Shown: positions 11,518 to 32,241, counted from the stretch's first letter. The stretch: DNA of 64,000 nt from Candidatus Sericytochromatia bacterium (GCA_036676455.1 JAKFCW010000011.1:128268-192267), one strand, 5' to 3'. Numbers and translations: made by a program. The notes: generated from the sequence alone by a model not told the origin.

Positions 11518-11530
11518 ATGAGGAGAAAAC

Positions 11531-14082: not shown

Positions 14083-16677
14083 ATGGGCCGCTACGTGCTG
14101 GAATTCCAGGAGATCGACCAAACGAAGATCGCGGCCGTCGGCGGCAAGGGCGCGAACCTTGGGGTGCTTTCCCGGATCGAGGGCATCCGCGTGCCGGCTG
14201 GCTTTTGCGTGACGACGGACGCTTTCAGGCGGATCATGGCAGAGGCGTCGTCGCTCGACGATAGGCTCGATCGGTTGTCGTGCCTGAAGCCGGACGACCG
14301 GGAGGCGATCCGCACGCTCAGCGCGGAGATCCGCCAGAGGCTCGAAGCGATCGCCATCCCCGACGATCTGGCGACGGCCATCATCCGCTCCCTCGCCCGA
14401 CTTGGCGAGCATGCGGCCTACGCCGTGCGCTCAAGCGCGACGGCGGAAGACCTGCAGGAGGCCTCTTTTGCGGGCCAGCAGGACACGTATCTGAACGTCG
14501 TCGGGTCGGCGGCAATCCTCCAGCACATCAGCCGCTGCTGGGCCTCGCTCTTCACCGAGCGGGCCGTGACCTACCGTCTGCACAATCATATCGACCACCG
14601 GACGGTCGACATGGCCGTGGTCGTGCAGCGGATGGTGTTCCCGCAGGCCGCGGGCATCCTGTTCACCGCTGACCCCGTCACCTCCAACCGGAAAGTCGCA
14701 TCCGTGGAGGCCTGCTTCGGCCTCGGCGAAACCCTGGTCTCCGGCCGGGTGAACGGAGATAGCTTCCAGGTACGGGACGGTGAGATCATCGCCATGGCGG
14801 TCGCCAAGAAGCAGCTCGCCAGCCTCGCGTCGCCGGCGGGCGGGACGCAGGAAGTGGCGATTGAACCCGATCGGCAGAAGCAGCCGGCGCTGAACACTGC
14901 GCAAGTCCTTCAGCTCGTGCAGCTTGGCCGGCGGATCGAAGCGCACTTCGGATGCCCCCAGGACATCGAATGGTGCCTGGTCGACGACGACTTCCAGATC
15001 GTCCAGAGCCGGCCGATCACCACGCTGTTCTCCGTCCCGGCGGCCGCCGACCAAGAGAATCACGTCTACGTCTCCGTCGGACATCAGCAAATGATGACCG
15101 ACCCCTTGAAACCGCTGGGGATCTCCCTGTGGCAACTGACGGCCTTCCGGCCCATGTTCGAGGCTGGCGGGAGGCTGTTCGTCGACGTCACCCAGGACCT
15201 CGCTTCGCCAGCAAGGCGCGCGGGCCTCCTGGCGGTCACGGGGAAATCCGATCCGCTGATCCGGGACGCGCTGCAGACCATCCTCGACCGTGGCGACTTC
15301 ATCCGGTTGCTCCCGGAGGAGGGTTCCGGCAAATCGCCGGCAGGCAGCGCGCCAGCCCCGATCGAGACGGATCCGGCCATCGTCGCCGAGCTGATCGGTC
15401 GCACCCAGGCCTCCATCTCCGCCTTGAAGCGCGACATCCGGACGAAGTCCGGATCGGCGCTCCTCGACTTCATCTTGGCGGACATCCAGGAGCTGAGGCG
15501 GATCTTGTTCGATCCGCAAAGCCATCGAGCCCTCATGGCGGGGATGGAGGCCACCTGGTGGCTCAACGAGCACCTGCATGCGTGGCTGGGCGAGAAGAAC
15601 GCGGCCGACACGCTCACGCTGTCTGCCCCCAACAACGTCACCTCGGAGATGGGGTTGGCACTCCTGGACGTCGCGGACACCATCCGCCCGTATCCGGATG
15701 TGGTCGCCTTTCTGCAGCATGTCGAGGACGAGGGATTCCTGGAAGAGCTTGTCGAGCTAGCAGGCGGGCGGGAAGCGCGCGACGCCATCCGGGCCTACCT
15801 CGACACGTACGGGATGCGCTGCGTCGGCGAGATCGACATCACGCGGCCGCGCTGGAGCGAATGCCCCACGACGCTCGTCCCCATGATTCTCGGCAACATC
15901 CGGAACTTCGAGCCGGGCGCCGGCGAGCGGCGCTTCGAGCAAGGGCGGCAGGAGGCCTGGAAGAAGGAACAGGAGCTGCTGGATCGCTTGCGGGCTTTGC
16001 CCGACGGGGAGCTGAAGGCCGAAGAGGCCAAGAGGATGATCGATCGGCTCCGGACCTTCATCGGGTACCGGGAGTATCCAAAGTACGGCATGGTTTGCCG
16101 CTACTTCGTTTACAAGGAGGCCTTGCTAGAGGAAGCCAAGCGCCTTGTGCAAGCCAACGTGCTGCGGGAGCAAGAAGACATCTTCTACCTCACGTTCGAG
16201 GAGCTTCACGACGTCGTACGCAATCATCCAGTGGACGACCCGCTCATCCGTCGGCGCAAGGACGCGTTCAGGGCATTTCAAGCCCTCACGCCGCCCCGGG
16301 TGCTCACATCCGATGGCGAGGCGCTCGCCGGGGCATATCGACGCGACGATTTGCCGGCCGGCGCGCTAGTCGGCTTACCGGTTTCCGCCGGGACCATCGA
16401 GGGGCGCGCCCGCGTCATCCTGGGCATGGAGGAGGCCAACCTCGAAGCGGGCGACATCCTGGTCACCGCCTACACGGATCCCAGCTGGACGCCTCTGTTC
16501 GTCGCGATCAAAGGTCTGGTAACGGAGGTGGGGGGCCTGATGACCCATGGGGCGGTGATCGCCCGGGAGTACGGCTTACCGGCCGTTGTGGGGGTGGAGC
16601 GCGCCACCCGGCTGATCCGGGATGGGCAGCGGATTCGCGTGCATGGAACGGACGGGTACGTCGAGATCCTTTCCTAG
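14083..16677 (+). CDS. rph: rifampin phosphotransferase family protein (PEP synthase-like: ATP-grasp, central domain, swivel His domain)
   Basis: ORF 14047..16677, start at the ATG at 14083 after GGAGAGAGGAG. MGRYVLEFQEIDQTKIAAVGGKGANLGVLSRIEGIRVPAGFCVTT; AVRSSATAEDLQEASFAGQQDTYLNV; C-terminal DILVTAYTDPSWTPLFVAIKGLVTEVGGLMTHGAVIAREYGLPAVVG. Length and motifs match RPH enzymes as I recall them. Confidence 0.8.
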   Translation: MGRYVLEFQEIDQTKIAAVGGKGANLGVLSRIEGIRVPAGFCVTTDAFRRIMAEASSLDDRLDRLSCLKPDDREAIRTLSAEIRQRLEAIAIPDDLATAIIRSLARLGEHAAYAVRSSATAEDLQEASFAGQQDTYLNVVGSAAILQHISRCWASLFTERAVTYRLHNHIDHRTVDMAVVVQRMVFPQAAGILFTADPVTSNRKVASVEACFGLGETLVSGRVNGDSFQVRDGEIIAMAVAKKQLASLASPAGGTQEVAIEPDRQKQPALNTAQVLQLVQLGRRIEAHFGCPQDIEWCLVDDDFQIVQSRPITTLFSVPAAADQENHVYVSVGHQQMMTDPLKPLGISLWQLTAFRPMFEAGGRLFVDVTQDLASPARRAGLLAVTGKSDPLIRDALQTILDRGDFIRLLPEEGSGKSPAGSAPAPIETDPAIVAELIGRTQASISALKRDIRTKSGSALLDFILADIQELRRILFDPQSHRALMAGMEATWWLNEHLHAWLGEKNAADTLTLSAPNNVTSEMGLALLDVADTIRPYPDVVAFLQHVEDEGFLEELVELAGGREARDAIRAYLDTYGMRCVGEIDITRPRWSECPTTLVPMILGNIRNFEPGAGERRFEQGRQEAWKKEQELLDRLRALPDGELKAEEAKRMIDRLRTFIGYREYPKYGMVCRYFVYKEALLEEAKRLVQANVLREQEDIFYLTFEELHDVVRNHPVDDPLIRRRKDAFRAFQALTPPRVLTSDGEALAGAYRRDDLPAGALVGLPVSAGTIEGRARVILGMEEANLEAGDILVTAYTDPSWTPLFVAIKGLVTEVGGLMTHGAVIAREYGLPAVVGVERATRLIRDGQRIRVHGTDGYVEILS

Positions 16678-20484: not shown

Positions 20485-21255
20485 ATGAATCGCGTACTCG
20501 AGGGAAAGGTTGCCATCGTGACGGGTGCCGCCATGGGCATGGGCGAGGCGACGGCCAAGCTGTTTGCCGCCTCCGGCGCCAAGGTGGTCGTGGCGGACTT
20601 CAACGAGGCGAAGGGCCGAGCCGTCGTCGAGGCGATCACGCAATCCGGCGGTATCGCTCACTTCGTGAAGGTGGACATCTCCAAGTCCGATCAGGTGGCG
20701 GCCATGGTCAAGGAAACCGTGGACACGTTCGGACGCCTTGACGTCGCCGTGAACAACGCCGCGCTCACCCCTGACGACAAGCCGGTCGCGGAGTTCGACG
20801 AGGACTACTGGGATCGCCTCATGGCGGTCGACCTCAAGGGCACGGCGCTTTGCCTGAAGTACGAGCTGCGCCAGATGATTGCCCAGGGGCATGGGGGCTC
20901 GATCATCAACATCTCGTCGGTGAGCGGCTTCCGTCCCCAGCCCAGCACCGTGGCTTACGTGGCGGCCAAGCATGGCGTCAATGGCCTCACCAAGGTCGCG
21001 GCGATGGAGAATGGCCCTCACAACATCCGCGTCAACTCCGTGGCCCCCGGAGCCATCGATACGCCGATGCTGCGCGGAGCGCTGGAGCAGTTCGGCCTCG
21101 ACCCGGTGACCTACGCTCCGCAGTTGAGCCTGCTCAATCGCTTCGCCCAGCCCGACGAGGTCGCCCAGGCAAGCCTCTGGCTCGCTTCGGACCAGTCGTC
21201 GTACGTGACCGGCACCACCCTGCACGTGGACGCCGGCTACGTAAACGCTCGCTAA
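20485..21255 (+). CDS. SDR family oxidoreductase (FabG-like)
   Basis: LEGKVAIVTGAAMGMGEA (TGxxxGxG), NNAA, and the catalytic S...YVAAKHG (YxxxK). Confidence 0.9.
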   Translation: MNRVLEGKVAIVTGAAMGMGEATAKLFAASGAKVVVADFNEAKGRAVVEAITQSGGIAHFVKVDISKSDQVAAMVKETVDTFGRLDVAVNNAALTPDDKPVAEFDEDYWDRLMAVDLKGTALCLKYELRQMIAQGHGGSIINISSVSGFRPQPSTVAYVAAKHGVNGLTKVAAMENGPHNIRVNSVAPGAIDTPMLRGALEQFGLDPVTYAPQLSLLNRFAQPDEVAQASLWLASDQSSYVTGTTLHVDAGYVNAR

Positions 21256-21271: not shown

Positions 21272-21300
21272 GCTCCGCCTTCGCGGCGGAGCCCTTTTTT
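21272..21300 (+). terminator. rho-independent terminator after the SDR gene
   Basis: GCTCCGCC-TTCGC-GGCGGAGC followed by CCTTTTTT. Confidence 0.7.
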
Positions 21301-21440: not shown

Positions 21441-21725
21441 ATGTCGCAGGAAAAAACGTTCGAGCAGTTGCAGGTCGAGCTGGTGGAGGCGCTGACGAAG
21501 GACGAGGCCCTCAAGGCCGCGTTCATCGCCAACCCCAACGAGGTCGCCTCGCGCGTGCTCGGCGTCCAGATCCCCTCGTTCATCAAGCTGATGCCCGTCG
21601 AGGTGCCTGCCAATACCCTCCTCTTCCCTTTGCCTGCCCGGCGGGAAGAAGGCGAGCTCACGGATCTCGACCTCGAACGGGTCGCCGGCGGCAAGTCCAT
21701 CAAGGGTAAGAGCATGCTCTCTTAG
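21441..21725 (+). CDS. NHLP-family leader peptide precursor 1 (84-aa leader, 10-aa core KSIKGKSMLS)
   Basis: ATG at 21441 follows GGAGG. MSQEKTFEQLQVELVEALTKDEALKAAFIANPNEVASRVLGVQIPSFIKLMPVEVPANTLLFPLPARREEGELTDLDLERVAGG fits the nitrile-hydratase-like leader pattern and ends in a double glycine. Confidence 0.8.
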   Translation: MSQEKTFEQLQVELVEALTKDEALKAAFIANPNEVASRVLGVQIPSFIKLMPVEVPANTLLFPLPARREEGELTDLDLERVAGGKSIKGKSMLS

Positions 21726-21821
21726 GGAGCCCAGCCCTCTCGTCGAGCCCCTCATGCTCCCCTGGATCGAAACGCCCCCCGAGACGGGGCCACCTCAGAA
21801 CCCACGAAGGAGAACACAGCC

Positions 21822-22229
21822 ATGTCGCAGGAAAAGACGATCGAGCAGTATCAGGCCGAGCTGATGGAAGCCCTGATACAGGATGAAGCCCTCAAGGCCG
21901 AATTCATCGCCAACCCCAACGAGGTCGCCTCGCGCGTGCTCGGCATCCAGATCCCGTCGTTCATCAAGCTGATGCCCGTCGAGGTGCCTGCCAACGCCAT
22001 CCTCATCCCCCTTCCCGCCCAGATGGACGAGGACGAGCTCTCGGATATGGATCTCGAGCTGGTCGCCGGCGGCAAGACCCAGGTCGGCAGAACCATCAAG
22101 ATGATGGGCTTGGCGCTAGGAACCGGCCTCACCTACATGTTCACCGGCAAAAACAGCAAGCAGACCGCCAACATGGTGGCGAAGTTCAGTGATGCGTATG
22201 GGGACGTCAGGCAACACGAGTACGATTAA
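21822..22229 (+). CDS. NHLP-family leader peptide precursor 2 (84-aa leader, 51-aa Cys-free core)
   Basis: ATG follows GAAGGAG. The leader is nearly identical to precursor 1 at both DNA and protein level and ends in LELVAGG. Core: KTQVGRTIKMMGLALGTGLTYMFTGKNSKQTANMVAKFSDAYGDVRQHEYD. Confidence 0.85.
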   Translation: MSQEKTIEQYQAELMEALIQDEALKAEFIANPNEVASRVLGIQIPSFIKLMPVEVPANAILIPLPAQMDEDELSDMDLELVAGGKTQVGRTIKMMGLALGTGLTYMFTGKNSKQTANMVAKFSDAYGDVRQHEYD

Positions 22230-22254
22230 GCTCCGGAAAAATCCCAGAAAAAAC

Positions 22255-22285
22255 CGAGGCGCCGGACGGATTGTCCGGCGCCTCG
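22255..22285 (-). terminator. terminator between the convergent precursor genes and export operon
   Basis: 13-bp stem CGAGGCGCCGGAC / GTCCGGCGCCTCG with a 5-nt loop. On the minus strand it is followed by GTTTTTTCT, giving a U-tract for the TolC-end transcript. It may also stop plus-strand transcription. Confidence 0.65.
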
Positions 22286-22290
22286 ACGCC

Positions 22291-23610
22291 TCATGGAAGC
22301 AAGTCCTCGAGTTCCAGGCCGAGCGCCTGAGCGAGCTTGAGCTGGTAGGTCGAGACCGCGTACGAGCCTTGGATGAAGGCGCTCTGAGCCTGGCTCAATG
22401 ACGAGAGCGCGCTGATCACCTCGAGGCCCGTCCCCACTCCCGCGTTGAAACGCACCTTGGCGAGCTTGAGGCCTTCAATCGCCGCCTGAAGCCCCTGCTG
22501 GGTCACGGCCACGCGCTCCTTGGCCGTCTCGAGCGCCTGAGACGTCGTCTGGATCTCGAGCGCCGCCGCGCGCCGGGTGGCCGCGAGCGACGCCTCCGCG
22601 CGCTCGATCCCCAGGCGGGCCTGCTCCACCTGGACGCTCGTCCGACCGCTGTCGAAGACGTTCCAGGCCAGCGAGGCCGCGATCGTCTGCTGGGTCCCGC
22701 CGCCGGGCCCCGCCGCCACGTCTCCCACCGCGCTGACGGTGGGCCAGGTCGCGCGAGAGCGCTGGAAAGCCGTTTCTGCCTGCGCCTCGCGCGCGAGAAT
22801 CGCCTGCGCCACTTCCGGGCGCCCGTCCAAGGCCCCGGCAATCTGCTCGGGCGCCATCTCCAGCCGCTTGAGCCGGGTCAACGCATCCACGCTCAATCCC
22901 GACATGCTCCGGCCGAGGTGGCTCTCCAGGACCTGGCGCGCCTGGACCAGCTGGCTGATCGCCTCGACGTATCCCTCCTGGGCGATCGCCACCGACGTCT
23001 CCGCCTGCAGGACTTCAAGGCGCGTGCCCACTTGCCCCGCGTCACGCAGCTCGGCGATCGCCAGCTGCTCCTTGGCCTGCTCGACGTTGATCCGCGCCGC
23101 ATCCCGCATGCTCTCCGCCTGCAGCAAGGCGAAGTACGCCATGGCCGTCTCGTAGGCCAAGCGGCGGCGCGCACCGATGCGCTCCACCTCCGCGAGCCGC
23201 TCGGCGAGCTCGCCCAGGCGCACCGCCGACTCCGTGCGCTGTGCGTCGTAAAGGGGCTGGACCGCGCTGAGCTGGACCTGAAACCCGTAAGGCCCGGTGG
23301 CCAGCACGGGGCGCGGCAGGATGCCCGCGGCGTCCGCGCGGTTCAGGCCGCCCGAGAGCGAAAACGACGGAAGCAGGCCCTTCCGCGCCTCGCGCGTCCC
23401 CGCTCGCGCCTGGTCGATCCCGAGGCGAGCCGCCTCGAGCGACGGATGCGTCCGGGTCGCGAGCTCCACCGCCTCTCGCAAGGTCAGGACCGGTGCCGGT
23501 GCCGCTGCCGTAGCCGGTGACGCCGCCGGCAGCTGGGCCTGGGCGCTCGGGGCCAGCAGAAAGGCGCCCAGAATCAGGGCCCAGGCTTGCGTGATGGGGC
23601 GGCGGCTCAT
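22291..23610 (-). CDS. TolC-family outer membrane efflux protein
   Basis: Signal peptide (LILGAFLLAPSAQA). Two tandem OEP-type coiled repeats rich in A/Q/L/E. The start overlaps the upstream stop by 4 nt. Confidence 0.8.
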   Translation of the reverse strand: MSRRPITQAWALILGAFLLAPSAQAQLPAASPATAAAPAPVLTLREAVELATRTHPSLEAARLGIDQARAGTREARKGLLPSFSLSGGLNRADAAGILPRPVLATGPYGFQVQLSAVQPLYDAQRTESAVRLGELAERLAEVERIGARRRLAYETAMAYFALLQAESMRDAARINVEQAKEQLAIAELRDAGQVGTRLEVLQAETSVAIAQEGYVEAISQLVQARQVLESHLGRSMSGLSVDALTRLKRLEMAPEQIAGALDGRPEVAQAILAREAQAETAFQRSRATWPTVSAVGDVAAGPGGGTQQTIAASLAWNVFDSGRTSVQVEQARLGIERAEASLAATRRAAALEIQTTSQALETAKERVAVTQQGLQAAIEGLKLAKVRFNAGVGTGLEVISALSSLSQAQSAFIQGSYAVSTYQLKLAQALGLELEDLLP

Positions 23611-24602
23611 GGCTGCTGTCGCTCCGGGCGGAAGGTGACGCCCAGCGAGAGCTCATCGCGGGTCAGGGCGAGGTCCCCGCCCCCGCTCTGATGGCGATAG
23701 CGCAGGTCCAGGCGCAGCTTCGGGGCGAACGCGTAGCCGAGGCCCAGGCCCGCTTCCCAGAGGCTGGTGCCTGAAACCGGGTACGGGGCTCGCGTCGCGC
23801 TGAACGAGAGCGCGGGGAAATAGGCGGCAGTGGCCAGGAGGTCGAGGCGATCGCCCAGGACCCAGGTGAATGGGAGTTCGAGGCCTAGCCCACGGCGCTC
23901 ATGCGCGTAGTCATAGGGAGTCCCGCTCAGGGGAAGGTTGGCTGCCGCCACGTGCGTGCTCATGAAGGCGAGGCTGGGGGCGACCTCCCAGGTCGCGCCG
24001 CCCAGCGGGTAACCGACGCGAAGGCGCGTGCTGCTCTCCTCGGGGGCCGCGGCGTCCGTGCTCGGCAGCGACGGCAAGGCCATGCTCGCCTTGAAGCGCT
24101 CGAAGGACGCTCCGAGGAGCCAGGCATCGAGCCGGAGCTGTCCCGAGAGTGCGAGCTGGTTGTCCAGGGTCGCGGAGAGGCGATTCCCCGCGAAGCGCGC
24201 ATCGAAAGCACCTGCCTGGTAGGCCAGCAGCAGCTGGCTATCGAGCGGAGGCGAGGCGGGCGCGGGGGCCAGCGTCGAGAGCAGGGGGCGGTACTGGGGC
24301 AGGTAGGTCTCGACCGGCTTCAGCGAGACCTTGGTGGCAGCGGCAACCGGCAAACGGTCGATCTGGTAGCCCTCGGCCGAGAAGACCAGGACCGGGGAGG
24401 CTCCCGGGGCGAGCACGAGGCTATAGCGGCCGTTCGCGTCCGTGAAGCCGGCGACGATGGCGCCCTCCTGGCGGACGAAGACGTTCGCCAGCGGGCGGCC
24501 TTGCGGGTCGAGGACCTGACCGCTGACGGTCTGCTCGGCATGCGCCGGTCGCGCGAGCGCCGGGACGAGCAGGAGGACGGCGAGGAGATGGCGTGACGTC
24601 AT
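23607..24602 (-). CDS. outer-membrane protein: carboxypeptidase-regulatory-like N-domain plus putative beta-barrel
   Basis: Signal peptide LLLVPALARPAHA. VSGQVLDPQGRPLANVFVRQEG...TDANGRYSL is a CarboxypepD_reg-like motif. The C-terminal part has alternating hydrophobic strands ending in LSLGVTFRP. Confidence 0.5.
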   Translation of the reverse strand: MTSRHLLAVLLLVPALARPAHAEQTVSGQVLDPQGRPLANVFVRQEGAIVAGFTDANGRYSLVLAPGASPVLVFSAEGYQIDRLPVAAATKVSLKPVETYLPQYRPLLSTLAPAPASPPLDSQLLLAYQAGAFDARFAGNRLSATLDNQLALSGQLRLDAWLLGASFERFKASMALPSLPSTDAAAPEESSTRLRVGYPLGGATWEVAPSLAFMSTHVAAANLPLSGTPYDYAHERRGLGLELPFTWVLGDRLDLLATAAYFPALSFSATRAPYPVSGTSLWEAGLGLGYAFAPKLRLDLRYRHQSGGGDLALTRDELSLGVTFRPERQQP

Positions 24603-24620
24603 GGCAAGGGCTCTTTCGGG

Positions 24621-25037
24621 CTAGGGGCGGATCAGGGTGATCTCGGCAAGGCGGACGGTCCGGCCGTCCGCGCTCAGGACTCCGCGCAGCTTGGCGCTCG
24701 CATCGGGCGTGGGGAAGGCCCCCGGGTACGTGAAGTCCATGACCGTTTCTCGGCGCATGCCGCTCGCCTCGACGCCGCCGGCGAGCAGCAGGAGGGACTT
24801 GGCGTCGCGCAACGGCGCCGGCAGGTCGGCAACGGCGAAAGAGAGCTGGGCGGGTGCTCCGAGCGACTGGCTCATGGTCGCGCTGAGGGTCAACCAGCCG
24901 GAGTCGGCCGGGGTCGCCTGCAGGGGAGCGCTCGACTGGCAGCCCGATAGGAGCAGGCCCAGCAGGAGGAGGGCCGGCCCCCCGAGGCTGGGACGAAGTC
25001 GCCTTTGCATCGGCACCGCGTGCCTCCTTTCGATCAT
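24621..25037 (-). CDS. small lipoprotein of the export operon
   Basis: ATG overlaps the stop of the upstream ABC gene (ATGA at 25034-25037). Lipobox LLLLGLLLSGC. No recognisable family. Confidence 0.55.
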   Translation of the reverse strand: MIERRHAVPMQRRLRPSLGGPALLLLGLLLSGCQSSAPLQATPADSGWLTLSATMSQSLGAPAQLSFAVADLPAPLRDAKSLLLLAGGVEASGMRRETVMDFTYPGAFPTPDASAKLRGVLSADGRTVRLAEITLIRP

Positions 25038-27292
25038 GTCGTTTGCCTCGTCATGAGGCGCGCGAAGAGGCCGCCTTCGGCCATGAGCGTCTCGAAATTC
25101 CCTTGCTGGACCACCTGGCCGGCGTCGAGGACGTAGATGCGATCGGCCTGCCGGATGGTGCTGAGGCGATGGGCGATGACCAGGCGGGTCACGTTCATGC
25201 GCTCCAAGCTCTCGCTGACGATGGCCTGCGTGCGGCTATCCAGGGCGCTGGTGGCCTCGTCGAACAGCAGGATCCGCGGCTTGAGCGCGAGCGCCCGGGC
25301 GATGAGCAGGCGCTGGCGCTGGCCACCGGAAAGGTTGTCGCCGCCCTCGCTGACCACCGTGTGCATGCCCATGGGCATGGCCGTGACGTCGTCGGCGAAG
25401 CCCGCGTTCCGGGCCGCCTCCCAGGCCTCGTCCTGGGTGATCAGAGCGCCGTTGGCGATGTTCTCGAAGATCGAGGCCGCCATCAAGCGGCCGTGCTGGA
25501 GGACCACTCCCATCTGCCGGCGCACGGCAGGCAGGTCGAGGCCCCCGAGGTCCTGGCCGTCGAGCGTGATCGTGCCGGACTCGTGCTCCTCGAAACCGAG
25601 CAAGAGCCGAAACAGCGAGGACTTGCCTCCGCCGGACGGCCCGACCAGCGCGACGAACTCGCCCGGGTTGACGGCGAGGCTGACGTCGCGCAGCACGTGC
25701 GGGGCATCGGGCGCGTAGCGGAAGCTGACGTGCGAGAAGGCGATCCGGCCCGTGAGGCGGCCGGGATCGACCTTGCCGGCATCCACCTCGGGCTCGGCCT
25801 CCAGGATGGGCTTGGCCCGTTCCCACAAGGAGACGACCTGCATCAGGGCCGTGATCGAGGCGCCGACGCCCGTCAGGCCCGCGACGAAGGCCCCGAAGGC
25901 CGCATTGAAGGCAAGGAATGCGCCCGGCGTGACCCCCGCGTCCGCCCCGGCGGCGGCCTTGGCCAGGCCGCCGAAGCCGTGGAAGAGCACGAGCATGCTC
26001 ACTATCGGCAGCAGCTCGTCGAAGAGGCTGAGGCGATCCTGGAGCCGCTGGGCATGGAAGCCGAGCCGCGAGAAGTCTGCGTAGCGCCTGGCCCACTGAG
26101 CGAAGGCCCTAGACTCCGCACCGGCGGTCCGGATCTTGGCCACTCCGCCGATCAGACCCACGACCAGGCCCAGGATCTTGCCGTCTTCTTGCATGAGCGC
26201 GCGGGTCGCGCGCAGCACCAGCACGGCCGAGACGGTGGTGAAGCCGACCGAGAGCAGGGCGACTCCGAGGGCCACCAGGGCCATGCGCGAGTTGAAGGCG
26301 AAGAGCTGGATCAGGTTGACCAGGGAGAAGACGCCCGCGAGCAGGGCCTGGATGGTGGAGCCCGACAGCAGCTGGCGGATCTGGTCGATGGCCGACAGGC
26401 GCGAGGCCAGTTCGCCAGCGGGGTAGCGCCGGAAGAAGGTCAGTTTCAGGTTGAGCAAGCGCGCCCAGACCGCGGACTCGGTGGTCGATTCGGCCCGGGA
26501 CTCGGCCCGCAACAGAGCGACGTTCTGGACCCACTGGAAGAGCGCCTGGGTCACGGCCAGCATCACCAAGCCCACACCCACCTGAGAAATGAGGCTGCGC
26601 TGGGCGTCAGGGATGGCGTGGTCGATCAAGAAGGCCGTTGCATGCGGGCTTACTAGGCCCAGGAGAGCCACGGAGGCCGCCATGAGGACGACCACTGGCA
26701 TGTCGTGCCGCGAGGCCTTCATCCCCAGCCGCAGGAGGTCGATGGCCTTGACGGCGGACTCAGGCAGCGGGCGGTAGAACATGGTGGCATGCGCTTGAAG
26801 GCCGCTCGCCAGCTCGGGCGTGACGGGCTGCCACGTGTTCTCGGTCGGATCGAAGCAGTCGTAGGCGCGCGCGCCGCGCGGCACGAGGGCGACGGGGAGG
26901 TTGCCCTCGGCGGTATGGGCGAGCAGGGGGCCGTTGTCACGCCTCCACCAGTCGCCGCGCAACAGGACGCGGCGGGTGCGGAAGCGCGAGGCGCGGGCGA
27001 TCGCCTCGATCGGGTCCTTGAGCCGGTCGAGGCTTTCCCAGGCTGCCGGCGGCTTGACGGCGATCCCCATGGCGGCGCCCACGGCGTGGGCCGCGCGATA
27101 AAGGGGGCTGCCCTCCATGGGGACGCCCTCCGAGCGCGGCTCGATGATCGCCGCGAGCTGGGCGATCGCCTTCTCCATCACGTCTCGGTCGTGACGCTGC
27201 CGGCTCACGAAGCGCGCGTAGGCCTCCTCGCGATCGGACTCGCCACTGGCAGGCACCACCCGCTCGGTATCCATGGGGCGCTCGTCGCTCAT
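25034..27292 (-). CDS. ABC exporter permease/ATPase with Cys-less N-terminal extension (second NHLP-type export ABC)
   Basis: Walker A GPSGGGKSS, signature LSGGQRQRL, Walker B ILLFDEATSALD, six-helix TMD. The roughly 170-aa N-terminal domain lacks the ECG catalytic motif of its neighbour. Confidence 0.85.
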   Translation of the reverse strand: MSDERPMDTERVVPASGESDREEAYARFVSRQRHDRDVMEKAIAQLAAIIEPRSEGVPMEGSPLYRAAHAVGAAMGIAVKPPAAWESLDRLKDPIEAIARASRFRTRRVLLRGDWWRRDNGPLLAHTAEGNLPVALVPRGARAYDCFDPTENTWQPVTPELASGLQAHATMFYRPLPESAVKAIDLLRLGMKASRHDMPVVVLMAASVALLGLVSPHATAFLIDHAIPDAQRSLISQVGVGLVMLAVTQALFQWVQNVALLRAESRAESTTESAVWARLLNLKLTFFRRYPAGELASRLSAIDQIRQLLSGSTIQALLAGVFSLVNLIQLFAFNSRMALVALGVALLSVGFTTVSAVLVLRATRALMQEDGKILGLVVGLIGGVAKIRTAGAESRAFAQWARRYADFSRLGFHAQRLQDRLSLFDELLPIVSMLVLFHGFGGLAKAAAGADAGVTPGAFLAFNAAFGAFVAGLTGVGASITALMQVVSLWERAKPILEAEPEVDAGKVDPGRLTGRIAFSHVSFRYAPDAPHVLRDVSLAVNPGEFVALVGPSGGGKSSLFRLLLGFEEHESGTITLDGQDLGGLDLPAVRRQMGVVLQHGRLMAASIFENIANGALITQDEAWEAARNAGFADDVTAMPMGMHTVVSEGGDNLSGGQRQRLLIARALALKPRILLFDEATSALDSRTQAIVSESLERMNVTRLVIAHRLSTIRQADRIYVLDAGQVVQQGNFETLMAEGGLFARLMTRQTT

Positions 27293-29493
27293 GCGCGACC
27301 CTCCACGGGCTCGCTCTGCTCGCTCTTCACCAGCCGTGCGTAGGCGCCTTGCTTGGCGAGCAACTCGTCATGCGTGCCGCGCTCGGCGATGCGCCCGACT
27401 TCCATCACCACGATCTCGTCGCAATCGCGCACGGTGCTGAGGCGATGCGCGATGATCAGGCAGGTGCAGCCGCGGCGGCGGAGGTTGTCGCCGATGAGGC
27501 GCTCGGTTTCGGCGTCCAGGGCGCTGGTGGCCTCGTCCATCACCAGGATGGCCGGGTCGTTGACCAGGGCGCGGGCGATCTCCAGGCGCTGGCGCTGCCC
27601 CCCCGAAAGGTTGACCCCGCCTTCTAGCAGGGGCGCGTCATAGCCTCCGGGCAACGCGAGGATCACGTCGTGGATCAGCGCGTCCTGACAGGCCTGGCGC
27701 AGCCGCTCGTCGCTCACGGTCGGATCCCAGAGCGTGAGGTTGTCGCGCACGGAGCCCGCGAACAAGGCGATCTCCTGGTCCACCGTGGAGACGGACAGGC
27801 TGAGGACCGCCGGATCCCAGTCCTGGCGCAGGCGTCCGTCGAAGCGAACCTCCCCTTCCCAGGGCTCGTAGAGGCCACTGACCAGCTTGGCAACGGTGGA
27901 CTTGCCCGAGCCCGACCCGCCGACCAGTGCGACCCGGCGACCCGGCTTCACCGAGAGCGAGAAGTCCGCGATGGCGGGCGCCGAAACCCGGCTGTAACCA
28001 AATGACAGCGAGGCGATCGATAGCTCGCCTTCCAGGCGGAAGGCATCAGGACCGGGAAGCGTCCCCTTGCGCTCGGGCACGACGGCCGGATGGTCCAGCA
28101 CGTCATCCAGGCGATTGAGGTCGCTCACCAGGTCCTGGATGGCGCTTCCCAAGGCGACCAGGCTGTTGATCGGGCCGAGGAAGCTGCCGGCCATGCCCTG
28201 GAAGGCCACCAGCATGCCGATGCTGAGGTGGCCCTCGGTGATGCGGAAGCCGCCGACGATGAGGATGGCCGCCGTGGTGAGCGCGGAAAGGAGGGTCGGC
28301 AGCACGCTCAGCACCATGGCCTGGCTGGCGGTTCGCTGGGTCGCCTCGATCACCTTGGCGTCGTAGCCGGCCCAGCGGGTGAAGAAGTCCGCCTCGGAGG
28401 CCGAGGCCTTGAGGGTCTCGATGGACTGGAGACCGGCCATCGAAAGTCCCACCTTCTTGCCGTACTCCTGGGCCAGTCGCTGGTTGGCCTCGACGCGGCG
28501 CGCGCCCATTGCCTGCAAGAGGAGCAGGTTGGCGAGGCCGGAGGCCGCCACCAGCCCCGTCAGCACCGGATCGTAGTGGAACATGAGCGCCCCGTAGAAG
28601 ACGATCATGACCGTGTCGATCAAGCTGCTCGCCAGCCGCCCCGAAAGCAGGCCCGCCACCTCGTCGTTCATGGTGATGCGGTTTGCGACCTCGCCCGCGT
28701 AGCGCTGCGAGTAGAAGGCCATGGGCAGGTGCAGGAGATGGCGCAGGAAGCGGCTGGAATGAACCGCCGCGAGCTTGAGCTTGAGGCGCCGCAGGTAGAC
28801 GATCCGCAGCTGCGAGAGGGCGGCCTTGAAGAGGGCGATCATGACGACGCCAAGCAACAGGGGGCGAAGCCAATCGTGCATCCCCTGGACCAGGATCTGG
28901 TCCACGAAGAGCTGGGTCGCCACCGGCAGGGCCATGCCCGGCACCACCAGCAAGAGGCCGGCGAGCACACAGTAGAGCAGATCCCCGTACGAGCCCTCGA
29001 GGCGGCGGCGCATCGCCTGCAGGACGCTCGGCTTGCGCCCGCCCTTCTCGAAGTCCTCGCGCGGCTCGAACTGCAGCACCACTCCGGTGAAGCCTTCGTC
29101 GAACTCCGAGAGCGTCACCGTGCGGCGGCCGCTCGCCGGGTCGTTGAGAGTGACGCGCCGGTCGTCCATGCCCTCGACGACCACGTAGTGGTTGAAGTTC
29201 CAGAAGACGATGCACGGGAAGGTGACGGCGCGAAACGTCTCCATGGACTTCTTGAAGCCCTTGGCCGTGAGGCCGTACGCGCGAGCCGCCATGAGGATGT
29301 TGCTGGCCTTGCTGCCGTCGCGCGAGACGCCGCAGGCGATCCGCAGCTCGCTGAGGGGCACCTGGCGGCCGTGATAGGCGAGGATCATGGCGAGCGCGGC
29401 CGCGCCACATTCCACGGCCTCCATCTGGATGACGGTCGGGGTTCTCACGCGGCGCGGCCGCATGCGCAGCCGCAAGGACTTAATAGAGACCAC
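27289..29493 (-). CDS. C39 peptidase-domain ABC exporter (double-glycine leader-cleaving transporter)
   Basis: N-terminal VIQMEAVECGAAALAMILAYHGRQVPLSELR carries the C39 catalytic Cys. Walker A GGSGSGKST, LSGGQRQRL, ILVMDEATSALD. The GTG at 29493 follows GAGG; an alternative ATG lies at 29463. Confidence 0.9.
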   Translation of the reverse strand: MVSIKSLRLRMRPRRVRTPTVIQMEAVECGAAALAMILAYHGRQVPLSELRIACGVSRDGSKASNILMAARAYGLTAKGFKKSMETFRAVTFPCIVFWNFNHYVVVEGMDDRRVTLNDPASGRRTVTLSEFDEGFTGVVLQFEPREDFEKGGRKPSVLQAMRRRLEGSYGDLLYCVLAGLLLVVPGMALPVATQLFVDQILVQGMHDWLRPLLLGVVMIALFKAALSQLRIVYLRRLKLKLAAVHSSRFLRHLLHLPMAFYSQRYAGEVANRITMNDEVAGLLSGRLASSLIDTVMIVFYGALMFHYDPVLTGLVAASGLANLLLLQAMGARRVEANQRLAQEYGKKVGLSMAGLQSIETLKASASEADFFTRWAGYDAKVIEATQRTASQAMVLSVLPTLLSALTTAAILIVGGFRITEGHLSIGMLVAFQGMAGSFLGPINSLVALGSAIQDLVSDLNRLDDVLDHPAVVPERKGTLPGPDAFRLEGELSIASLSFGYSRVSAPAIADFSLSVKPGRRVALVGGSGSGKSTVAKLVSGLYEPWEGEVRFDGRLRQDWDPAVLSLSVSTVDQEIALFAGSVRDNLTLWDPTVSDERLRQACQDALIHDVILALPGGYDAPLLEGGVNLSGGQRQRLEIARALVNDPAILVMDEATSALDAETERLIGDNLRRRGCTCLIIAHRLSTVRDCDEIVVMEVGRIAERGTHDELLAKQGAYARLVKSEQSEPVEGRA

Positions 29494-30748
29494 TGCTGGA
29501 CCTCAGGATGGCGAAGGCCAGGACGATGGGTGGCACCTCCTCGACCGTCACGCGGGCCGCCGCCGTGGTGCCGGCGGTCACGTCGAGCGACGGGCCGCGC
29601 GACGAGGACCACTTGAAGCCGCTCGGGTTGGCAGGCTCCCGGTCGAGCTCGGCCAGCACCTCAATCAACGGGCCGGAACTGGCGAAGGCGCGGGCAAGCT
29701 CGGAATTGCCGAGGGTGTTGAGAAGGGCCTGCTCGGTGATGGGAAAGGAGGAGACCGAGACGACCCGCCCGGTGACCCCGCCGAAGCGCTCGCGCTTGAC
29801 CGTGTCGGGGGTCAACTGGAGGCGCATGCCGGGACGAATCTTCTTGCCATCGCTGACCGGGAAGTAGGCCACGCCCATCAGGCTGCCATGACGCTCGCCG
29901 CGCGCCACGCTCGCGATGCGCGTGCCGGGTGCGATCACGTCGCCGACGGCGACCGCCACCTCCAGGATGGTTCCCTCGCGCTGGCTGACGACCCGGCCCT
30001 GCTGCGCGAGCTGCAACTCGAGCAGCGCACCGCTCTCACGCTGCGCGCGCAGCTGGTTGGCACGTTGGGTCTCGGCCTCGAGGCGCTGCTGAAACACCGA
30101 CGTCTTCTTGCTTTCCAGCTCCTTGAGCTGGCCTTCCAGCTCGGCGATTCGGTTGCGGTTCTGAAGGTAGGCCTGCTCAGCGGCAAGCGCGGCGTCCACG
30201 GGCACTGCCCGCAGCTGGTTGAGGCGCCGGTTCTCGGCGAGCCGCCGGTCGAGGACCGGATCCAGGGCCTTGGCCTCGCGGATCAGCTGTAGGACGTTCT
30301 CCTGCTGCTTGTCGATGGCGCGCAGGGTCTGCTCGGAGAAGCTGGCCTGCAACTCGCCAAGGGCCGCCTGCTGGCGCTCCAGCTCGGCCAGGCGCGCGCG
30401 CTGCTGGGAGAGCTGCTCGGCGAGTTCCGGCTGCTCGACGACAGCCAGCACGTCGCCGGCCTTCACCGCGTCGCCCACCCGGACCTTGAGCTCGCGGACG
30501 CGGCCTCCCCCCATGGCTTGCAAGGAAGCGACCTCGTGGGGCCGAGCGAAAACGGCCTTGGCGTTGACCGTCACCGGCAAGCGCCCGACGACGCTCCAGA
30601 GGATCACAAGTAGGATCCCGGTCCCCAGGCAGGCAAGAGCAACCCAGCCCTTGGGGCTGACGACCTGCATCAGGAGATCCAGGCGTTCGGGCGACGAGAG
30701 ACGCTCCAGGGCCTCCTTGCGGAACAGGCGCTGCTGGGGCGAGGACAT
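29480..30748 (-). CDS. HlyD-family secretion adaptor (bacteriocin export accessory protein)
   Basis: ORF 29480..31240 trimmed to the ATG at 30746-30748, which shares a base with the upstream TGA. MSSPQQRLFRKEALERLSSPERLDLLMQVVSPKGW, then a single TM helix, coiled-coil and barrel-sandwich regions. Confidence 0.85.
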   Translation of the reverse strand: MSSPQQRLFRKEALERLSSPERLDLLMQVVSPKGWVALACLGTGILLVILWSVVGRLPVTVNAKAVFARPHEVASLQAMGGGRVRELKVRVGDAVKAGDVLAVVEQPELAEQLSQQRARLAELERQQAALGELQASFSEQTLRAIDKQQENVLQLIREAKALDPVLDRRLAENRRLNQLRAVPVDAALAAEQAYLQNRNRIAELEGQLKELESKKTSVFQQRLEAETQRANQLRAQRESGALLELQLAQQGRVVSQREGTILEVAVAVGDVIAPGTRIASVARGERHGSLMGVAYFPVSDGKKIRPGMRLQLTPDTVKRERFGGVTGRVVSVSSFPITEQALLNTLGNSELARAFASSGPLIEVLAELDREPANPSGFKWSSSRGPSLDVTAGTTAAARVTVEEVPPIVLAFAILRSSSGLY

Positions 30749-31290
30749 CAAGCCCCCTTCATGCGCTTGAGCAGCCAGTCGAAGCGCGCGCCGGCCAGCG
30801 CCGCCTTGTCCAGCACGCTCATGTCGAGCTCGTCCTCGTACTCGGCATCCTGATCCATGGGGCCGCCCTGACCATAGCCGAGCCGGCTTACGGTGCTGCG
30901 AAGGCGATCCGACATGAACACCGCCAGGGCTCGGTAGAAGCGCCCGGCGAAACCCATGTCCTGGGCCAACTTGCGCTCGATCTCGCGCCGGGGCACCGAC
31001 AGCACCAGCCCGGACTCCAGAGCCGTCACCGTGGCGCTCGGAGGACGCTGATCCAACAGCGACATCTCGCCGACGATCTCTCCGCTGCCCAGCTGAGCGA
31101 CTTCCTTGCCTTGCAGGGCGGCGACCGAGACCCCGAAGCGCCCGTCCAGGATCACGTAGACATGGTCGATGGCGCTCGCCTCGCGAATGAGCACGCGGCC
31201 CGCGGAAACGGTTTCGCGCTGGCCGACCTCGACGAGCCAATCCACGTCAGAATCGCTGAGTTCGCCGAGGATGAAGAGAACCTTCTTCAC
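30748..31290 (-). CDS. cyclic nucleotide-binding domain protein (first gene of export operon)
   Basis: VLIREASAIDHVYVILDGRFGV...GSGEIVGEMSLLDQRPPSATVTALE is a CAP/cNMP-binding fold signature. GGAAGGAG lies 5 nt upstream of the GTG at 31290; the ORF-track start at 31296 abuts the RBS. Confidence 0.75.
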   Translation of the reverse strand: MKKVLFILGELSDSDVDWLVEVGQRETVSAGRVLIREASAIDHVYVILDGRFGVSVAALQGKEVAQLGSGEIVGEMSLLDQRPPSATVTALESGLVLSVPRREIERKLAQDMGFAGRFYRALAVFMSDRLRSTVSRLGYGQGGPMDQDAEYEDELDMSVLDKAALAGARFDWLLKRMKGA

Positions 31291-31350
31291 TTGCACTCCT
31301 TCCGAGCATGAAGCAGACGATCAAGCAGACATGATGATGACAGACTCGTC

Positions 31351-32241
31351 CTAGACCGACAAGCCAATCAAACGCTTGCCGGTGCCGCGCGTCTCGTCGC
31401 AAGCCTCGGCATAAGGCGCCATCCAGCGCTGGGCAAAGGCCATCATGGCCGGGTGCTGCACGGGCACGGTCCACATGCCGCGATCGATGCCCATGGCATG
31501 GGCGCGGCGCATGACCTCGGCGTAAAGGGGCAGGATCCGCGCCCGGCGCTGCAGATCCGGATGCACGTAACTGCAGGTGTAACGCAGCACGTCCTCGAAG
31601 AGGTGGGTGATGAGCCAGCCGACCACCTTGCCATGGTGCCGCAGGACCACGCTGGTCGGAGCATGCGCGTCCACCTCGAAATCGAAGGGCAAGAGGTCCG
31701 GCGCGATCCAGGGCGAGGCCTCCTGGCTGCGCTTGAGATCCTCGCGTTCGAGGGGGGTGACCTCGTCCCAGCGGCCGATCTCGAAGCAGTCCCCCAGAGT
31801 GGCCTTCGCCACCCAGCTGGCGCGCGACATCTGGTCGTAGCGGGCCCGCACGACCAGCATCCGTCGCTCGGGGGCGTCCCAGCCGCGAAGCGCGAGCAGG
31901 TGCTCGAGCACCGGTATGGACGGCTTGCCGGTCATGTAGACGCCATGCACCTCCTGCGTTCCCTCGGCCTGCAGGGCTGCCTCGAGGCGCTCCAGCAGGC
32001 CTGCGGCAAGGCCGCGCCGGCGGTAGGCAGGGCGGACGAATAGGGAGCAAAGCTCGGCATGCTCGCCCGTCGCGTCGCGCACGGCCAGGGCGAGCCCGGC
32101 AGGCAAGCCGTCAACCCGTGCGGCGATCGCGAGCACCTCGGGCTCCAGGGAAACCAGCCCCGCGCGAAACGCCGGGAACGTCAGCCCGGCGAACTCCAGC
32201 CCCTCGCTTGCGGCGAGGCGGCCGTACGCCACCGCGCTCAT
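31351..32241 (-). CDS. GNAT family N-acetyltransferase (two-lobed)
   Basis: ORF 31351..32901 trimmed to the ATG at 32241 (MSAVAYGRL). Acetyl-CoA motif LFVRPAYRRRGLAAGLLERLE. A second acyltransferase-like half follows. It ends 60 nt upstream of the export operon on the same strand. Confidence 0.7.
   Translation of the reverse strand: MSAVAYGRLAASEGLEFAGLTFPAFRAGLVSLEPEVLAIAARVDGLPAGLALAVRDATGEHAELCSLFVRPAYRRRGLAAGLLERLEAALQAEGTQEVHGVYMTGKPSIPVLEHLLALRGWDAPERRMLVVRARYDQMSRASWVAKATLGDCFEIGRWDEVTPLEREDLKRSQEASPWIAPDLLPFDFEVDAHAPTSVVLRHHGKVVGWLITHLFEDVLRYTCSYVHPDLQRRARILPLYAEVMRRAHAMGIDRGMWTVPVQHPAMMAFAQRWMAPYAEACDETRGTGKRLIGLSV

What the first reader, a model, noticed from the sequence alone, without database searches (positions are those of the whole stretch)
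21441..32241. NHLP-leader peptide locus with Cys-free cores, no visible maturase and an expanded diderm export operon
Seen: two tandem paralogous ORFs share a nearly identical 84-aa leader that ends in VAGG. Convergent with them is a minus-strand operon whose genes are joined by start/stop overlaps at 30748, 29480-29493, 27289-27292, 25034-25037 and 23607-23610. It encodes a cNMP-binding protein, a HlyD adaptor, a C39-peptidase ABC exporter (Cys in VECGAAALAMIL), a second ABC exporter with a Cys-less N-domain, a lipoprotein, an OM barrel-like protein and TolC.

Established: this leader shape is the nitrile-hydratase-like leader peptide family with a dedicated HlyD/ABC/ABC export set (Haft, Basu and Mitchell 2010). 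That family usually sits next to a cyclodehydratase, a LanM or a radical-SAM maturase.

Inference: no such enzyme is in the window and neither core has Cys. The products may therefore be unmodified or merely acylated microcin-like peptides, which is a poorly described use of NHLP leaders.
Basis: partly seen in the sequence, partly recalled or inferred. Interest (0 to 1): 0.75.

Follow-up and report, generated by a model that had tools for sequence, protein, structure and literature searches.

The report
Acyltransferase-only ribosomal lipopeptide gene cluster

Summary
There are two tandem precursors with 84-aa NHLP-type leaders ending in VAGG and Cys-free cores. A convergent, overlap-coupled operon encodes cNMP-binding protein, HlyD, C39-ABC, second ABC, lipoprotein, OM barrel and TolC.

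"No visible maturase" is wrong. A 296-aa tandem-GNAT acyltransferase (31354-32241, minus strand) heads that operon, and its start codon is the finding's own end coordinate. It is 41% identical (E 3e-76) to the GNAT of a Nostoc cluster that carries the published NpuA-type nostolysamide precursor. NpuN-type enzymes fatty-acylate Lys1 of the core (selidamides).

Both cores here begin with Lys. So do all 21 precursor homologs, and 64 of 94 distinct cores next to GNAT homologs. The GNAT-to-TolC module is syntenic in other Sericytochromatia-like genomes whose flanks differ. No LanM, YcaO or radical-SAM enzyme was found in the 64 kb.

Best reading: linear, Lys1-acylated peptides (a 10-mer and a 51-mer), cleaved and exported by the NHLM system. 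LanM-less GNAT clusters have been noted in the literature but none has been characterised. This is a new variant of a known kind, of moderate interest. No chemistry was tested.

The parts
21441..21725 (+). Precursor A1: an 84-aa NHLP-type leader (...LERVAGG) followed by the 10-aa core KSIKGKSMLS. Lys is at core position 1 and there is no Cys.
   Evidence: Translation. TIGR03793 E 3.9e-13, 49.1 bits against a cutoff of 50.9. Short cores ending (R)KGKS(M/I)L(S/A) recur in four metagenomic homologs, P0096-P0099. Tandem A1-type and A2-type genes also occur in L114.
21822..22229 (+). Precursor A2: an 84-aa leader (...LELVAGG) followed by the 51-aa core KTQVGRTIKMMGLALGTGLTYMFTGKNSKQTANMVAKFSDAYGDVRQHEYD. 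Lys is at position 1, there is no Cys, and the centre is Gly-rich and hydrophobic.
   Evidence: Translation. TIGR03793 E 4.9e-12, 45.5 bits. Orthologous cores are found in P0084-P0088 and P0091, and in L081.
22253..22287 (-). 15-bp GC-rich hairpin followed by a T-run. It is a terminator-like site after TolC, between the convergent precursor genes and the operon.
   Evidence: A similar hairpin lies after the L081 precursor (alignment).
22291..23610 (-). TolC-family outer-membrane channel, 439 aa, with a signal peptide.
   Evidence: Pfam OEP 6.8e-49. TIGR01844 E 1.9e-36, below its cutoff. Sequence.
23607..24602 (-). Outer-membrane protein, 331 aa: signal peptide, CarboxypepD_reg domain and a C-terminal beta-barrel.
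   Evidence: Pfam. In the AF2 model the barrel part has pLDDT 77-94, but only 1 of 5 models is confident. The top Foldseek matches are 10-stranded barrels, OpcA and the omptins. Only 5 homolog clusters were found.
24621..25037 (-). 138-aa lipoprotein of unknown function, with lipobox LLSGC|QSS.
   Evidence: Sequence. No Pfam or NCBIfam hit. The lipobox and the protein are conserved in L081 and L114.
25034..27292 (-). ABC2: NHLM exporter permease/ATPase without a peptidase domain (752 aa).
   Evidence: TIGR03797 933 bits against a cutoff of 709. No C39 Pfam hit.
27289..29493 (-). ABC1: C39 peptidase/permease/ATPase (734 aa). It is predicted to cut after VAGG and to export the peptide.
   Evidence: TIGR03796 1065 bits against a cutoff of 853. 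Peptidase_C39 1.7e-38. The Cys motif QMEAVECGAAALAMIL and the His in FNHYVVV are present.
29480..30748 (-). HlyD-type periplasmic adaptor (422 aa).
   Evidence: TIGR03794 366 bits against a cutoff of 156. The start at 30748 was fixed by the TGATG overlap and by the 422-aa orthologs.
30748..31296 (-). Single-domain cyclic-nucleotide-binding protein (about 180 aa). It is presumed to be a regulator of the export system.
   Evidence: TIGR03896 182 bits against a cutoff of 161, matching model positions 139-317 only. Pfam cNMP_binding 3.9e-18.
31354..32241 (-). Tandem-GNAT N-acyltransferase (296 aa). It is the predicted maturase that acylates Lys1 of both cores. The acyl-CoA P-loop R74-x-x-G77-x-A79 lies in the N-terminal domain.
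   Evidence: Pfam Acetyltransf_1 2.3e-17 plus a weak Acetyltransf_6 hit at residues 197-253. 41% identity, E 3e-76, to the GNAT of Nostoc sp. NIES-4103 (L008), whose neighbour is an NpuA-type precursor listed in PMC13060382 Table S5. AF2 pLDDT 93.5, with tandem GNATs as the top PDB matches. Syntenic in L081 and L083.

Best explanation
The locus is a self-contained pathway for two linear, lysine-acylated ribosomal peptides. It is a lanthionine-free variant of the selidamide class.

Proposed steps:
1. The two precursors are translated with 84-aa NHLP-type leaders (shown).
2. The cytoplasmic tandem-GNAT enzyme, encoded at the head of the export operon, transfers an acyl group to the side-chain amine of Lys1, the residue right after VAGG. 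The donor is probably a fatty acyl-CoA. The chain length is unknown and acetyl is not excluded. This step is inferred from homology to NpuN-type enzymes and from the conservation of Lys1.
3. The C39 domain of ABC1 cleaves after Gly-Gly, and ABC1/ABC2 with HlyD and TolC carry the products across both membranes (inferred from family membership).
4. The products would be an acyl-KSIKGKSMLS cationic 10-mer and an acylated 51-mer with a hydrophobic Gly-rich centre. Both are probably membrane-active.
5. The cNMP-binding protein probably gates or regulates export. The conserved lipoprotein and the 10-stranded OM barrel have no assigned role; immunity or outer-membrane release are guesses.
For: 1. The GNAT is part of the module.
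- It lies 57 nt upstream of the cNMP gene on the same strand, with no terminator between them.
- GNAT-cNMP-HlyD-ABC1-ABC2-lipoprotein-OMP-TolC with a convergent A2-type precursor is repeated in L081. GNAT-cNMP-HlyD is repeated in L083, and the precursor/TolC end is repeated in L114. The upstream neighbours differ in each case.
- L117 keeps an orphan A1-type precursor but lacks the module, so the module is gained or lost as a block.

2. The GNAT belongs to the NpuN-type family.
- The loci fetched as its homologs include L008 (Nostoc sp. NIES-4103) and L017 (Aliinostoc HNIBRCY26).
- Their adjacent precursors are the NpuA-type sequences listed for those strains in PMC13060382 Table S5, apart from single residues garbled in the machine-read table.
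- BLASTP against the L008 GNAT gives 41% identity over 288 aa, E 3e-76.
- 38 of 77 homolog loci hold a LanM, and natural LanM-GNAT fusion proteins exist.
- The predicted fold is a tandem GNAT, as reported for NpuN (PMC13060382).

3. The acceptor residue is conserved.
- Both cores start with Lys, as do all 21 precursor homologs.
- 64 of 94 distinct cores beside GNAT homologs start with Lys, against a background Lys frequency of 8.5%. 83 of 94 have Lys within positions 1-4.
- NpuN acylates Lys1 only (PMC13060382). KspN and PhaN acylate the most N-terminal Orn or Lys (PMC8784127).

4. LanM-less, Cys-free, Lys1 loci with NHLM exporters form coherent clades in a neighbour-joining tree of the GNATs, and the window's GNAT sits in one of them.

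5. No other RiPP enzyme was found in the 64 kb.
Against: - No chemistry has been done on this or any LanM-less cluster.
- I could not obtain the sequences of NpuN, KspN or PhaN themselves. The link runs through GNATs of orthologous clusters.
- The function of Lys1 acylation is unclear even for nostolysamide, where it did not change activity (PMC13060382).
- The acyl-chain length cannot be predicted.
- Only 64 kb of a 214.7-kb contig was seen, so a distal maturase cannot be excluded.
- The Lys1 counts include paralogs and orthologs, so the binomial P value overstates independence.
- The leaders fall just under the curated TIGR03793 cutoff.
Confidence: 0.62

Rival explanations
1. The peptides are exported unmodified, as class II microcin-like bacteriocins. 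The GNAT would be a neighbour with an unrelated job.
For: The cores have no Cys, and no LanM, YcaO or rSAM enzyme is in the window. The A2 core resembles a Gly-rich hydrophobic bacteriocin. Double-glycine cleavage and a C39-ABC/HlyD/TolC set are sufficient for unmodified microcins (established knowledge). Stand-alone precursors occur far from any GNAT in L116 and L117.
Against: The GNAT stays with the export genes in three lineages whose flanks differ. It belongs to a family tied to RiPP clusters and is even found fused to LanM. Lys at core position 1 is invariant in 21 of 21 homologs, which cleavage alone does not require. Some LanM-linked clades place the Lys at position 4 instead.
Confidence: 0.15
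2. The GNAT is a self-protection enzyme. It would acylate or acetylate the toxic peptide inside the producer, and the exported active form would be unacylated or deacylated.
For: The closest single-domain structural relative reported for NpuN is the tabtoxin resistance acetyltransferase, and acylation did not alter nostolysamide activity (PMC13060382). NpuN accepts acetyl-CoA in vitro (same paper). No immunity gene has been identified in the locus.
Against: No deacylase is encoded in the module. For the three characterised systems, heterologous expression gave the acylated species as pathway products, and phaeornamide was detected in the native producer (PMC8784127). Leader-bearing precursors are usually inactive already (established knowledge for RiPPs).
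Confidence: 0.08
3. A further maturase encoded outside the window acts on the cores, with or without the GNAT. Examples would be a Ser/Thr-modifying enzyme, an epimerase or a methyltransferase.
For: Only 64 kb of a 214.7-kb contig was seen. The cores contain 3 and 8 Ser/Thr residues. Related GNAT loci sometimes carry extra enzymes: an rSAM in L008 and FAD_binding_4 in L085. GNAT fusions to P450 and to a methyltransferase exist.
Against: The module is conserved as a unit with variable flanks, and none of the flanking genes recurs. No candidate is present within 21 kb on one side or 32 kb on the other.
Confidence: 0.12

Closest known systems
Selidamides: kamptornamide (ksp), phaeornamide (pha) and nostolysamides A/B (npu). 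Sources: Hubrich et al. 2022, PMC8784127; Weir et al. 2026, PMC13060382; Bosch et al. 2026, PMC13647313.
   Same: The precursors have NHLP or Nif11 leaders with a Gly-Gly cleavage site. The maturase is a tandem-GNAT 'N enzyme' of the same sequence family (41% identity to the GNAT of an npu-type cluster). The acceptor Lys is at the N-terminus of the core. The cluster is associated with a C39-ABC exporter.
   Different: All characterised members carry (methyl)lanthionine rings made by a LanM, and two also need a peptide arginase. This locus has no LanM, no arginase and no Cys, so the products would be linear. It has two very different cores (10 and 51 aa). It encodes its own TolC, OM barrel and lipoprotein. 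The host is a Sericytochromatia-like bacterium. Acylation is not demonstrated here.
NHLP/NHLM putative microcin systems (Haft, Basu and Mitchell 2010; TIGR03793/03794/03796/03797/03896).
   Same: The HlyD, ABC1 and ABC2 proteins score above the equivalog cutoffs. The leaders match the whole TIGR03793 model. A cNMP-binding accessory protein is present.
   Different: The leaders score just under the curated cutoff. The cNMP protein has one domain instead of two. The partner enzyme is a GNAT rather than a cyclodehydratase, LanM or rSAM. The operon is extended by TolC, an OMP and a lipoprotein.
Class II microcins and double-glycine-leader bacteriocins, such as colicin V and microcin L (recalled from general knowledge, not tested here).
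   Same: Gly-Gly cleavage by a C39-ABC exporter working with an HlyD adaptor and TolC. The A2 core is Gly-rich and hydrophobic.
   Different: Those leaders are about 15-25 aa, not 84-aa NHLP domains. They use a single ABC protein. No GNAT is involved. They have a dedicated immunity gene, and none has been identified here.
N-terminally lipidated RiPPs made with GNATs: goadvionins, lipolanthines and lipoavitides (as summarised in PMC13647313).
   Same: A GNAT-superfamily enzyme attaches a lipid to a ribosomal peptide.
   Different: Those enzymes acylate the alpha-amine after leader removal. They use polyketide- or FAS-derived acyl chains made by enzymes encoded in the cluster, and the peptides are avionin- or lanthionine-containing. 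No such genes are present here.

Membership tests
NHLP leader peptide family (TIGR03793) | The sequence matches the NHLP leader HMM at or above the curated cutoff. | tested here: inconclusive
   A1 scores 49.1 bits (E 3.9e-13) and A2 scores 45.5 bits (E 4.9e-12), against a cutoff of 50.9. The match covers model positions 3-77 of 77. There is no Pfam hit for either peptide. A relative in a GNAT locus hits Pfam NHase_alpha.
NHLP leader peptide family (TIGR03793) | The leader ends in a Gly-Gly type cleavage motif and is followed by a variable core. | tested here: met
   Both leaders end in VAGG at residue 84. The cores diverge immediately after Lys1.
NHLM export system (TIGR03794/03796/03797) | All three dedicated transport proteins are present and score above the equivalog cutoffs. 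| tested here: met
   Scores against cutoffs are 366 and 156, 1065 and 853, and 933 and 709. The genes are overlap-coupled.
NHLM export system | ABC1 has an intact C39 peptidase domain with its catalytic Cys and His. | tested here: met
   Peptidase_C39 1.7e-38. The Cys lies in VECGAAALAMIL and the His in FNHYVVV. Activity itself was not tested.
TIGR03896 bacteriocin-type transport-associated cNMP protein | Two cNMP-binding domains, about 317 aa in all. | tested here: not met
   The score of 182 exceeds the cutoff of 161, but only model positions 139-317 are matched. The protein is about 180 aa with one domain, as are its orthologs.
Selidamides | The cluster holds a GNAT 'N enzyme' of the RiPP-associated NpuN/KspN clade. 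| tested here: met
   41% identity, E 3e-76, to the GNAT of the npu-type cluster of Nostoc sp. NIES-4103. The predicted fold is a tandem GNAT. The family co-occurs with LanM, NHLP/Nif11 precursors and NHLM exporters. No direct comparison with the NpuN, KspN or PhaN sequences was possible.
Selidamides | The precursor has an NHLP or Nif11 leader and a Lys or Arg at or near the N-terminus of the core. | tested here: met
   Lys is at core position 1 in both precursors and in all 21 homologs.
Selidamides | A fatty acyl group sits on the side-chain amine of Lys or Orn. This is the class-defining chemistry. | not testable with these tools
   Testing this needs co-expression or native extraction followed by LC-MS/MS.
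Selidamides | A (methyl)lanthionine macrocycle made by a LanM. This is present in every characterised member but is not part of the authors' definition. | tested here: not met
   A tblastn search with a LanM query found no hit anywhere in the window, and neither core has Cys.
Proteusins (NHLP precursor with rSAM epimerase, methyltransferases and similar enzymes) | A radical-SAM epimerase or a related maturase lies next to the NHLP precursor. | tested here: not met
   No Radical_SAM hit in any ORF scanned in the window.

The most novel reading that the evidence does not exclude
A one-enzyme RiPP pathway in a non-photosynthetic cyanobacterial relative (Sericytochromatia) makes linear side-chain lipopeptides with no macrocycle. 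A conserved pair of precursors would yield an ultrashort cationic lipo-decapeptide (acyl-KSIKGKSMLS) and a 51-residue lipidated bacteriocin-like peptide that act together. The module's own lipoprotein and 10-stranded OM barrel would serve lipopeptide release or self-protection.
Probability: 0.3. Interest if true: 0.62.

Novelty: new variant of a known kind. Interest (0 to 1): 0.45.

Why it matters
If Lys1 acylation is confirmed, this would be a minimal ribosomal route to linear lipopeptides. It needs only one precursor gene, one GNAT and one exporter, with no lanthionine synthetase or arginase.

That is the simplest chassis so far for gene-encoded lipopeptide engineering, which is the stated aim of the selidamide work. 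The 10-residue core is close in size to synthetic ultrashort lipopeptides.

It would also show that the many LanM-less, GNAT-linked NHLP/Nif11 clusters are a product class in their own right rather than degraded lanthipeptide clusters. At least two clades of them were seen here, in cyanobacteria, Sericytochromatia-like bacteria and proteobacteria.

Tried and rejected
- Looking up A2 by exact sequence in public assemblies found nothing. ABC1 was found only on one 8.5-kb Logan contig.
- A genome-contig scan with A2 found no close relative among the species representatives.
- A profile search of the GNAT family against PDB sequences gave only generic single-domain GNAT hits. The fold search was needed to see the tandem-GNAT class.
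- The supplement of PMC8784127 is not held. The supplement of PMC13060382 gives only accession numbers for NpuN. No direct alignment to NpuN, KspN or PhaN was therefore possible, and I bridged through the published NpuA-type precursors.
- I considered that A1 might be a decayed duplicate of A2, because DNA similarity stops right after Lys1. I rejected this because short cores with the same C-terminal motif recur in four other metagenomes, and the A1/A2 tandem recurs in L114.
- I considered the upstream SDR gene (20485-21255) as a possible supplier of the acyl donor. I rejected it because a terminator separates it from the precursors and it is absent from the syntenic loci.
- The sigma-70 promoter scan found nothing near either transcription unit.
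- The Rfam scan found only a tRNA.
- The OM-barrel model is weak. One of five models is confident and the N-terminal domain is unresolved, so the OpcA/omptin resemblance is taken as fold class only.

Full report
**What is at the coordinates**

Two plus-strand ORFs, 21441-21725 (94 aa) and 21822-22229 (135 aa), encode peptides with an 84-residue N-terminal region ending in VAGG. These regions are 66/84 identical (79%; DNA 215/252), so they are similar rather than nearly identical. DNA similarity stops a few codons after the Gly-Gly.

The cores are KSIKGKSMLS and KTQVGRTIKMMGLALGTGLTYMFTGKNSKQTANMVAKFSDAYGDVRQHEYD. Neither contains Cys.

The NHLP leader model TIGR03793 matches both over its whole length, with E 3.9e-13 and 4.9e-12. 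The scores of 49.1 and 45.5 bits are just below the curated cutoff of 50.9.

A terminator-like hairpin at 21272-21292 separates the precursors from the upstream SDR gene. Another at 22253-22287 lies between A2 and the convergent TolC gene.

**The minus-strand operon**

| Gene product | Coordinates | Evidence |
|---|---|---|
| TolC | 22291-23610 | Pfam OEP |
| CarboxypepD_reg/beta-barrel protein | 23607-24602 | Pfam; AF2 model |
| 138-aa lipoprotein | 24621-25037 | Lipobox LLSGC, conserved in two orthologs |
| ABC2 | 25034-27292 | TIGR03797, 933 bits against a cutoff of 709 |
| ABC1 with an intact C39 domain | 27289-29493 | TIGR03796, 1065 bits against a cutoff of 853 |
| HlyD | 29480-30748 | TIGR03794, 366 bits against a cutoff of 156 |
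| One-domain cNMP-binding protein | 30748-31296 | TIGR03896, 182 bits against a cutoff of 161, second half of the model only |

All five start/stop overlaps are present.

A 296-aa GNAT gene lies at 31354-32241, 57 nt upstream of the cNMP gene on the same strand. No terminator-like site lies between them. Its ATG is the finding's end coordinate.

Pfam finds a strong GNAT domain at residues 34-113 and a weak second one at residues 197-253. An AlphaFold2 model (pLDDT 93.5) matches solved tandem-GNAT proteins best: 2wpw, 7q3a, VipF and MshD.

**Is the GNAT part of the system?**

The evidence says yes.

- Its close homologs (67-83% identity) sit in the same arrangement. L081 is a MAG labelled Pantanalinema. 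It has GNAT-cNMP-HlyD-ABC1-ABC2-131 aa-CarboxypepD OMP-OEP and a convergent precursor whose core is an ortholog of A2.
- L083, from a compost metagenome, has GNAT-cNMP-HlyD. L114 has tandem A1-type and A2-type precursors convergent with OEP-OMP-136 aa-ABC2.
- The genes upstream of the GNAT differ in each case: an EF-hand protein here, an MFS transporter in L081 and hut genes in L083.
- L117 keeps an orphan A1-type precursor between the same flanking genes but lacks the whole module.

**What kind of GNAT is it?**

A scan of species-representative genomes with the family alignment returned 79 loci. They come from cyanobacteria, Acidobacteriota, Lysobacteraceae and other groups.

- Clustering their ORFs showed that 38 of 77 loci carry a class II lanthipeptide synthetase. 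43 carry ABC exporters, with tblastn scores of 640-860 bits against ABC1 in most of them, and 39 carry a HlyD protein. Most carry NHLP or Nif11 precursors.
- Two of the loci are L008 (Nostoc sp. NIES-4103) and L017 (Aliinostoc HNIBRCY26). They hold the NpuA-type precursors listed for those strains in Table S5 of the nostolysamide paper, apart from single residues garbled in the machine-read table. Their GNATs are therefore counterparts of NpuN.
- The window GNAT is 41% identical to the L008 GNAT over 288 residues (E 3e-76).
- NpuN, KspN and PhaN are the enzymes that define the selidamides. They fatty-acylate the side chain of the most N-terminal Lys or Orn of the core, and NpuN acts strictly on Lys1 (PMC8784127, PMC13060382, PMC13647313). 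NpuN is also described as a tandem GNAT with its P-loop in the N-terminal domain. Here that motif is R74-x-x-G77-x-A79.
- A profile search of 1.84 billion representatives found 979 family members at E <= 1e-30. Some are fused to LanM.

**The acceptor lysine**

Both cores begin with Lys, and all 21 homologs of the precursors have Lys directly after VAGG.

Among 94 distinct cores next to GNAT homologs, 64 start with Lys and 83 have Lys within the first four residues. The overall Lys frequency in these cores is 8.5%. The counts are not independent, because the set includes paralogs and orthologs. In some LanM-linked clades the Lys sits at position 4, which argues that it is not needed for Gly-Gly cleavage.

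**The LanM-less form**

tblastn with a LanM query finds nothing in the 64-kb window. Pfam scans of the large and most plausible ORFs in the window found no YcaO, LanB/C, radical-SAM enzyme or arginase.

In GNAT loci without LanM, 35 of 44 cores start with Lys and only 6 contain Cys. In loci with LanM, 47 of 50 cores contain Cys.

In a neighbour-joining tree of the GNATs, the window enzyme falls in a mostly LanM-less clade with L081, L083, L085, L013, L015, L052 and L074. A second LanM-less clade is cyanobacterial. [quoted passage not shown] In the paper library I searched, I found no report of a characterised product from such a cluster.

**Both precursor types are conserved**

- A2-type cores (KTQ.G..IKMMGLA.G.G...FTG.NS.QT) recur in six homologs.
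- A1-type short cores ending (R)KGKS(M/I)L(S/A) recur in four homologs.
- A1 is therefore not a decayed copy of A2.

**Host**

The window's GlgX protein is 84% identical to that of a Candidatus Sericytochromatia MAG, and the next best match is 58%.

**Mechanism**

Shown:
- the gene content
- family membership of the exporters
- an intact C39 motif
- GNAT family membership by homology and predicted fold
- conservation of Lys1
- synteny of the module

Inferred:
- acyl transfer to the epsilon-amine of Lys1 before leader removal
- an acyl-CoA donor
- cleavage after VAGG and export through ABC1/ABC2-HlyD-TolC
- membrane activity of the products

Unknown:
- the acyl-chain length
- the roles of the cNMP protein, the lipoprotein and the OM barrel. 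The barrel's predicted fold resembles the 10-stranded OpcA and omptin barrels, from a weak model.

**Verdict**

The headline 'no visible maturase' is wrong.

The locus fits the authors' definition of a selidamide cluster, namely a RiPP acylated by a GNAT 'N enzyme'. It lacks the lanthionine ring found in every characterised member. I rate it a new variant of a known kind, with moderate interest.

Noticed in passing
window 2100-12000 (tRNA-Pro at 2149-2224): A roughly 10-kb island of 49-54% GC sits in a 65-70% GC background and starts at a tRNA-Pro(GGG) gene. It holds a large serine recombinase (2100-3896, minus strand), a tyrosine integrase (8062-8985, minus strand), a DUF3472 protein and several ORFs with no family hit. 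It looks like an integrated mobile element.
   Followed up: partly
window 14041-16677 (+): An 878-aa protein scores 1574 bits on NCBIfam NF041857, rifamycin-inactivating phosphotransferase, against a cutoff of 999.
   Followed up: no
window 61995-63968 (-); L081 1-173: A hybrid histidine kinase-receiver protein with an adenylate/guanylate cyclase domain lies 30 kb from the operon. The syntenic locus L081 also has a Guanylate_cyc gene about 10 kb upstream of its GNAT. Either could be the source of the nucleotide sensed by the operon's cNMP-binding protein.
   Followed up: no
L002, L005, L006, L013, L015, L052, L074, L085 (precursor genes beside GNAT homologs): Many Cys-free, LanM-less cores linked to this GNAT family in other phyla end in Trp, for example ...FFSGW...GSISW...KLGGW...FNW and ...FSSW. 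The window's cores do not.
   Followed up: no
P0110, P0109, P0125, P0255, P0181, P0193, P0114, P0133 (family representatives): The GNAT family includes natural fusion proteins: LanM-GNAT (1436 aa), DUF4915-GNAT, P450-GNAT, GNAT-methyltransferase and GNAT-FemAB.
   Followed up: partly
L117 4289-4597, compared with L114 and L083: An orphan A1-type precursor sits between the glycerate kinase and hut genes. Compost relatives carry the whole precursor-to-GNAT module at that position, so the module appears to be gained or lost as a block.
   Followed up: partly
L116 10001-10402 (GCA_017744355.1): Precursors with the same leader but unrelated amphipathic cores, all starting with Lys, occur as stand-alone genes next to suf genes, far from any exporter or GNAT on that stretch.
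   Followed up: no
window 51360-53166 (-): Adjacent genes encode a SIR2_2-domain protein and a TPR-containing protein. They could be a defence-type pair. This was not examined.
   Followed up: no
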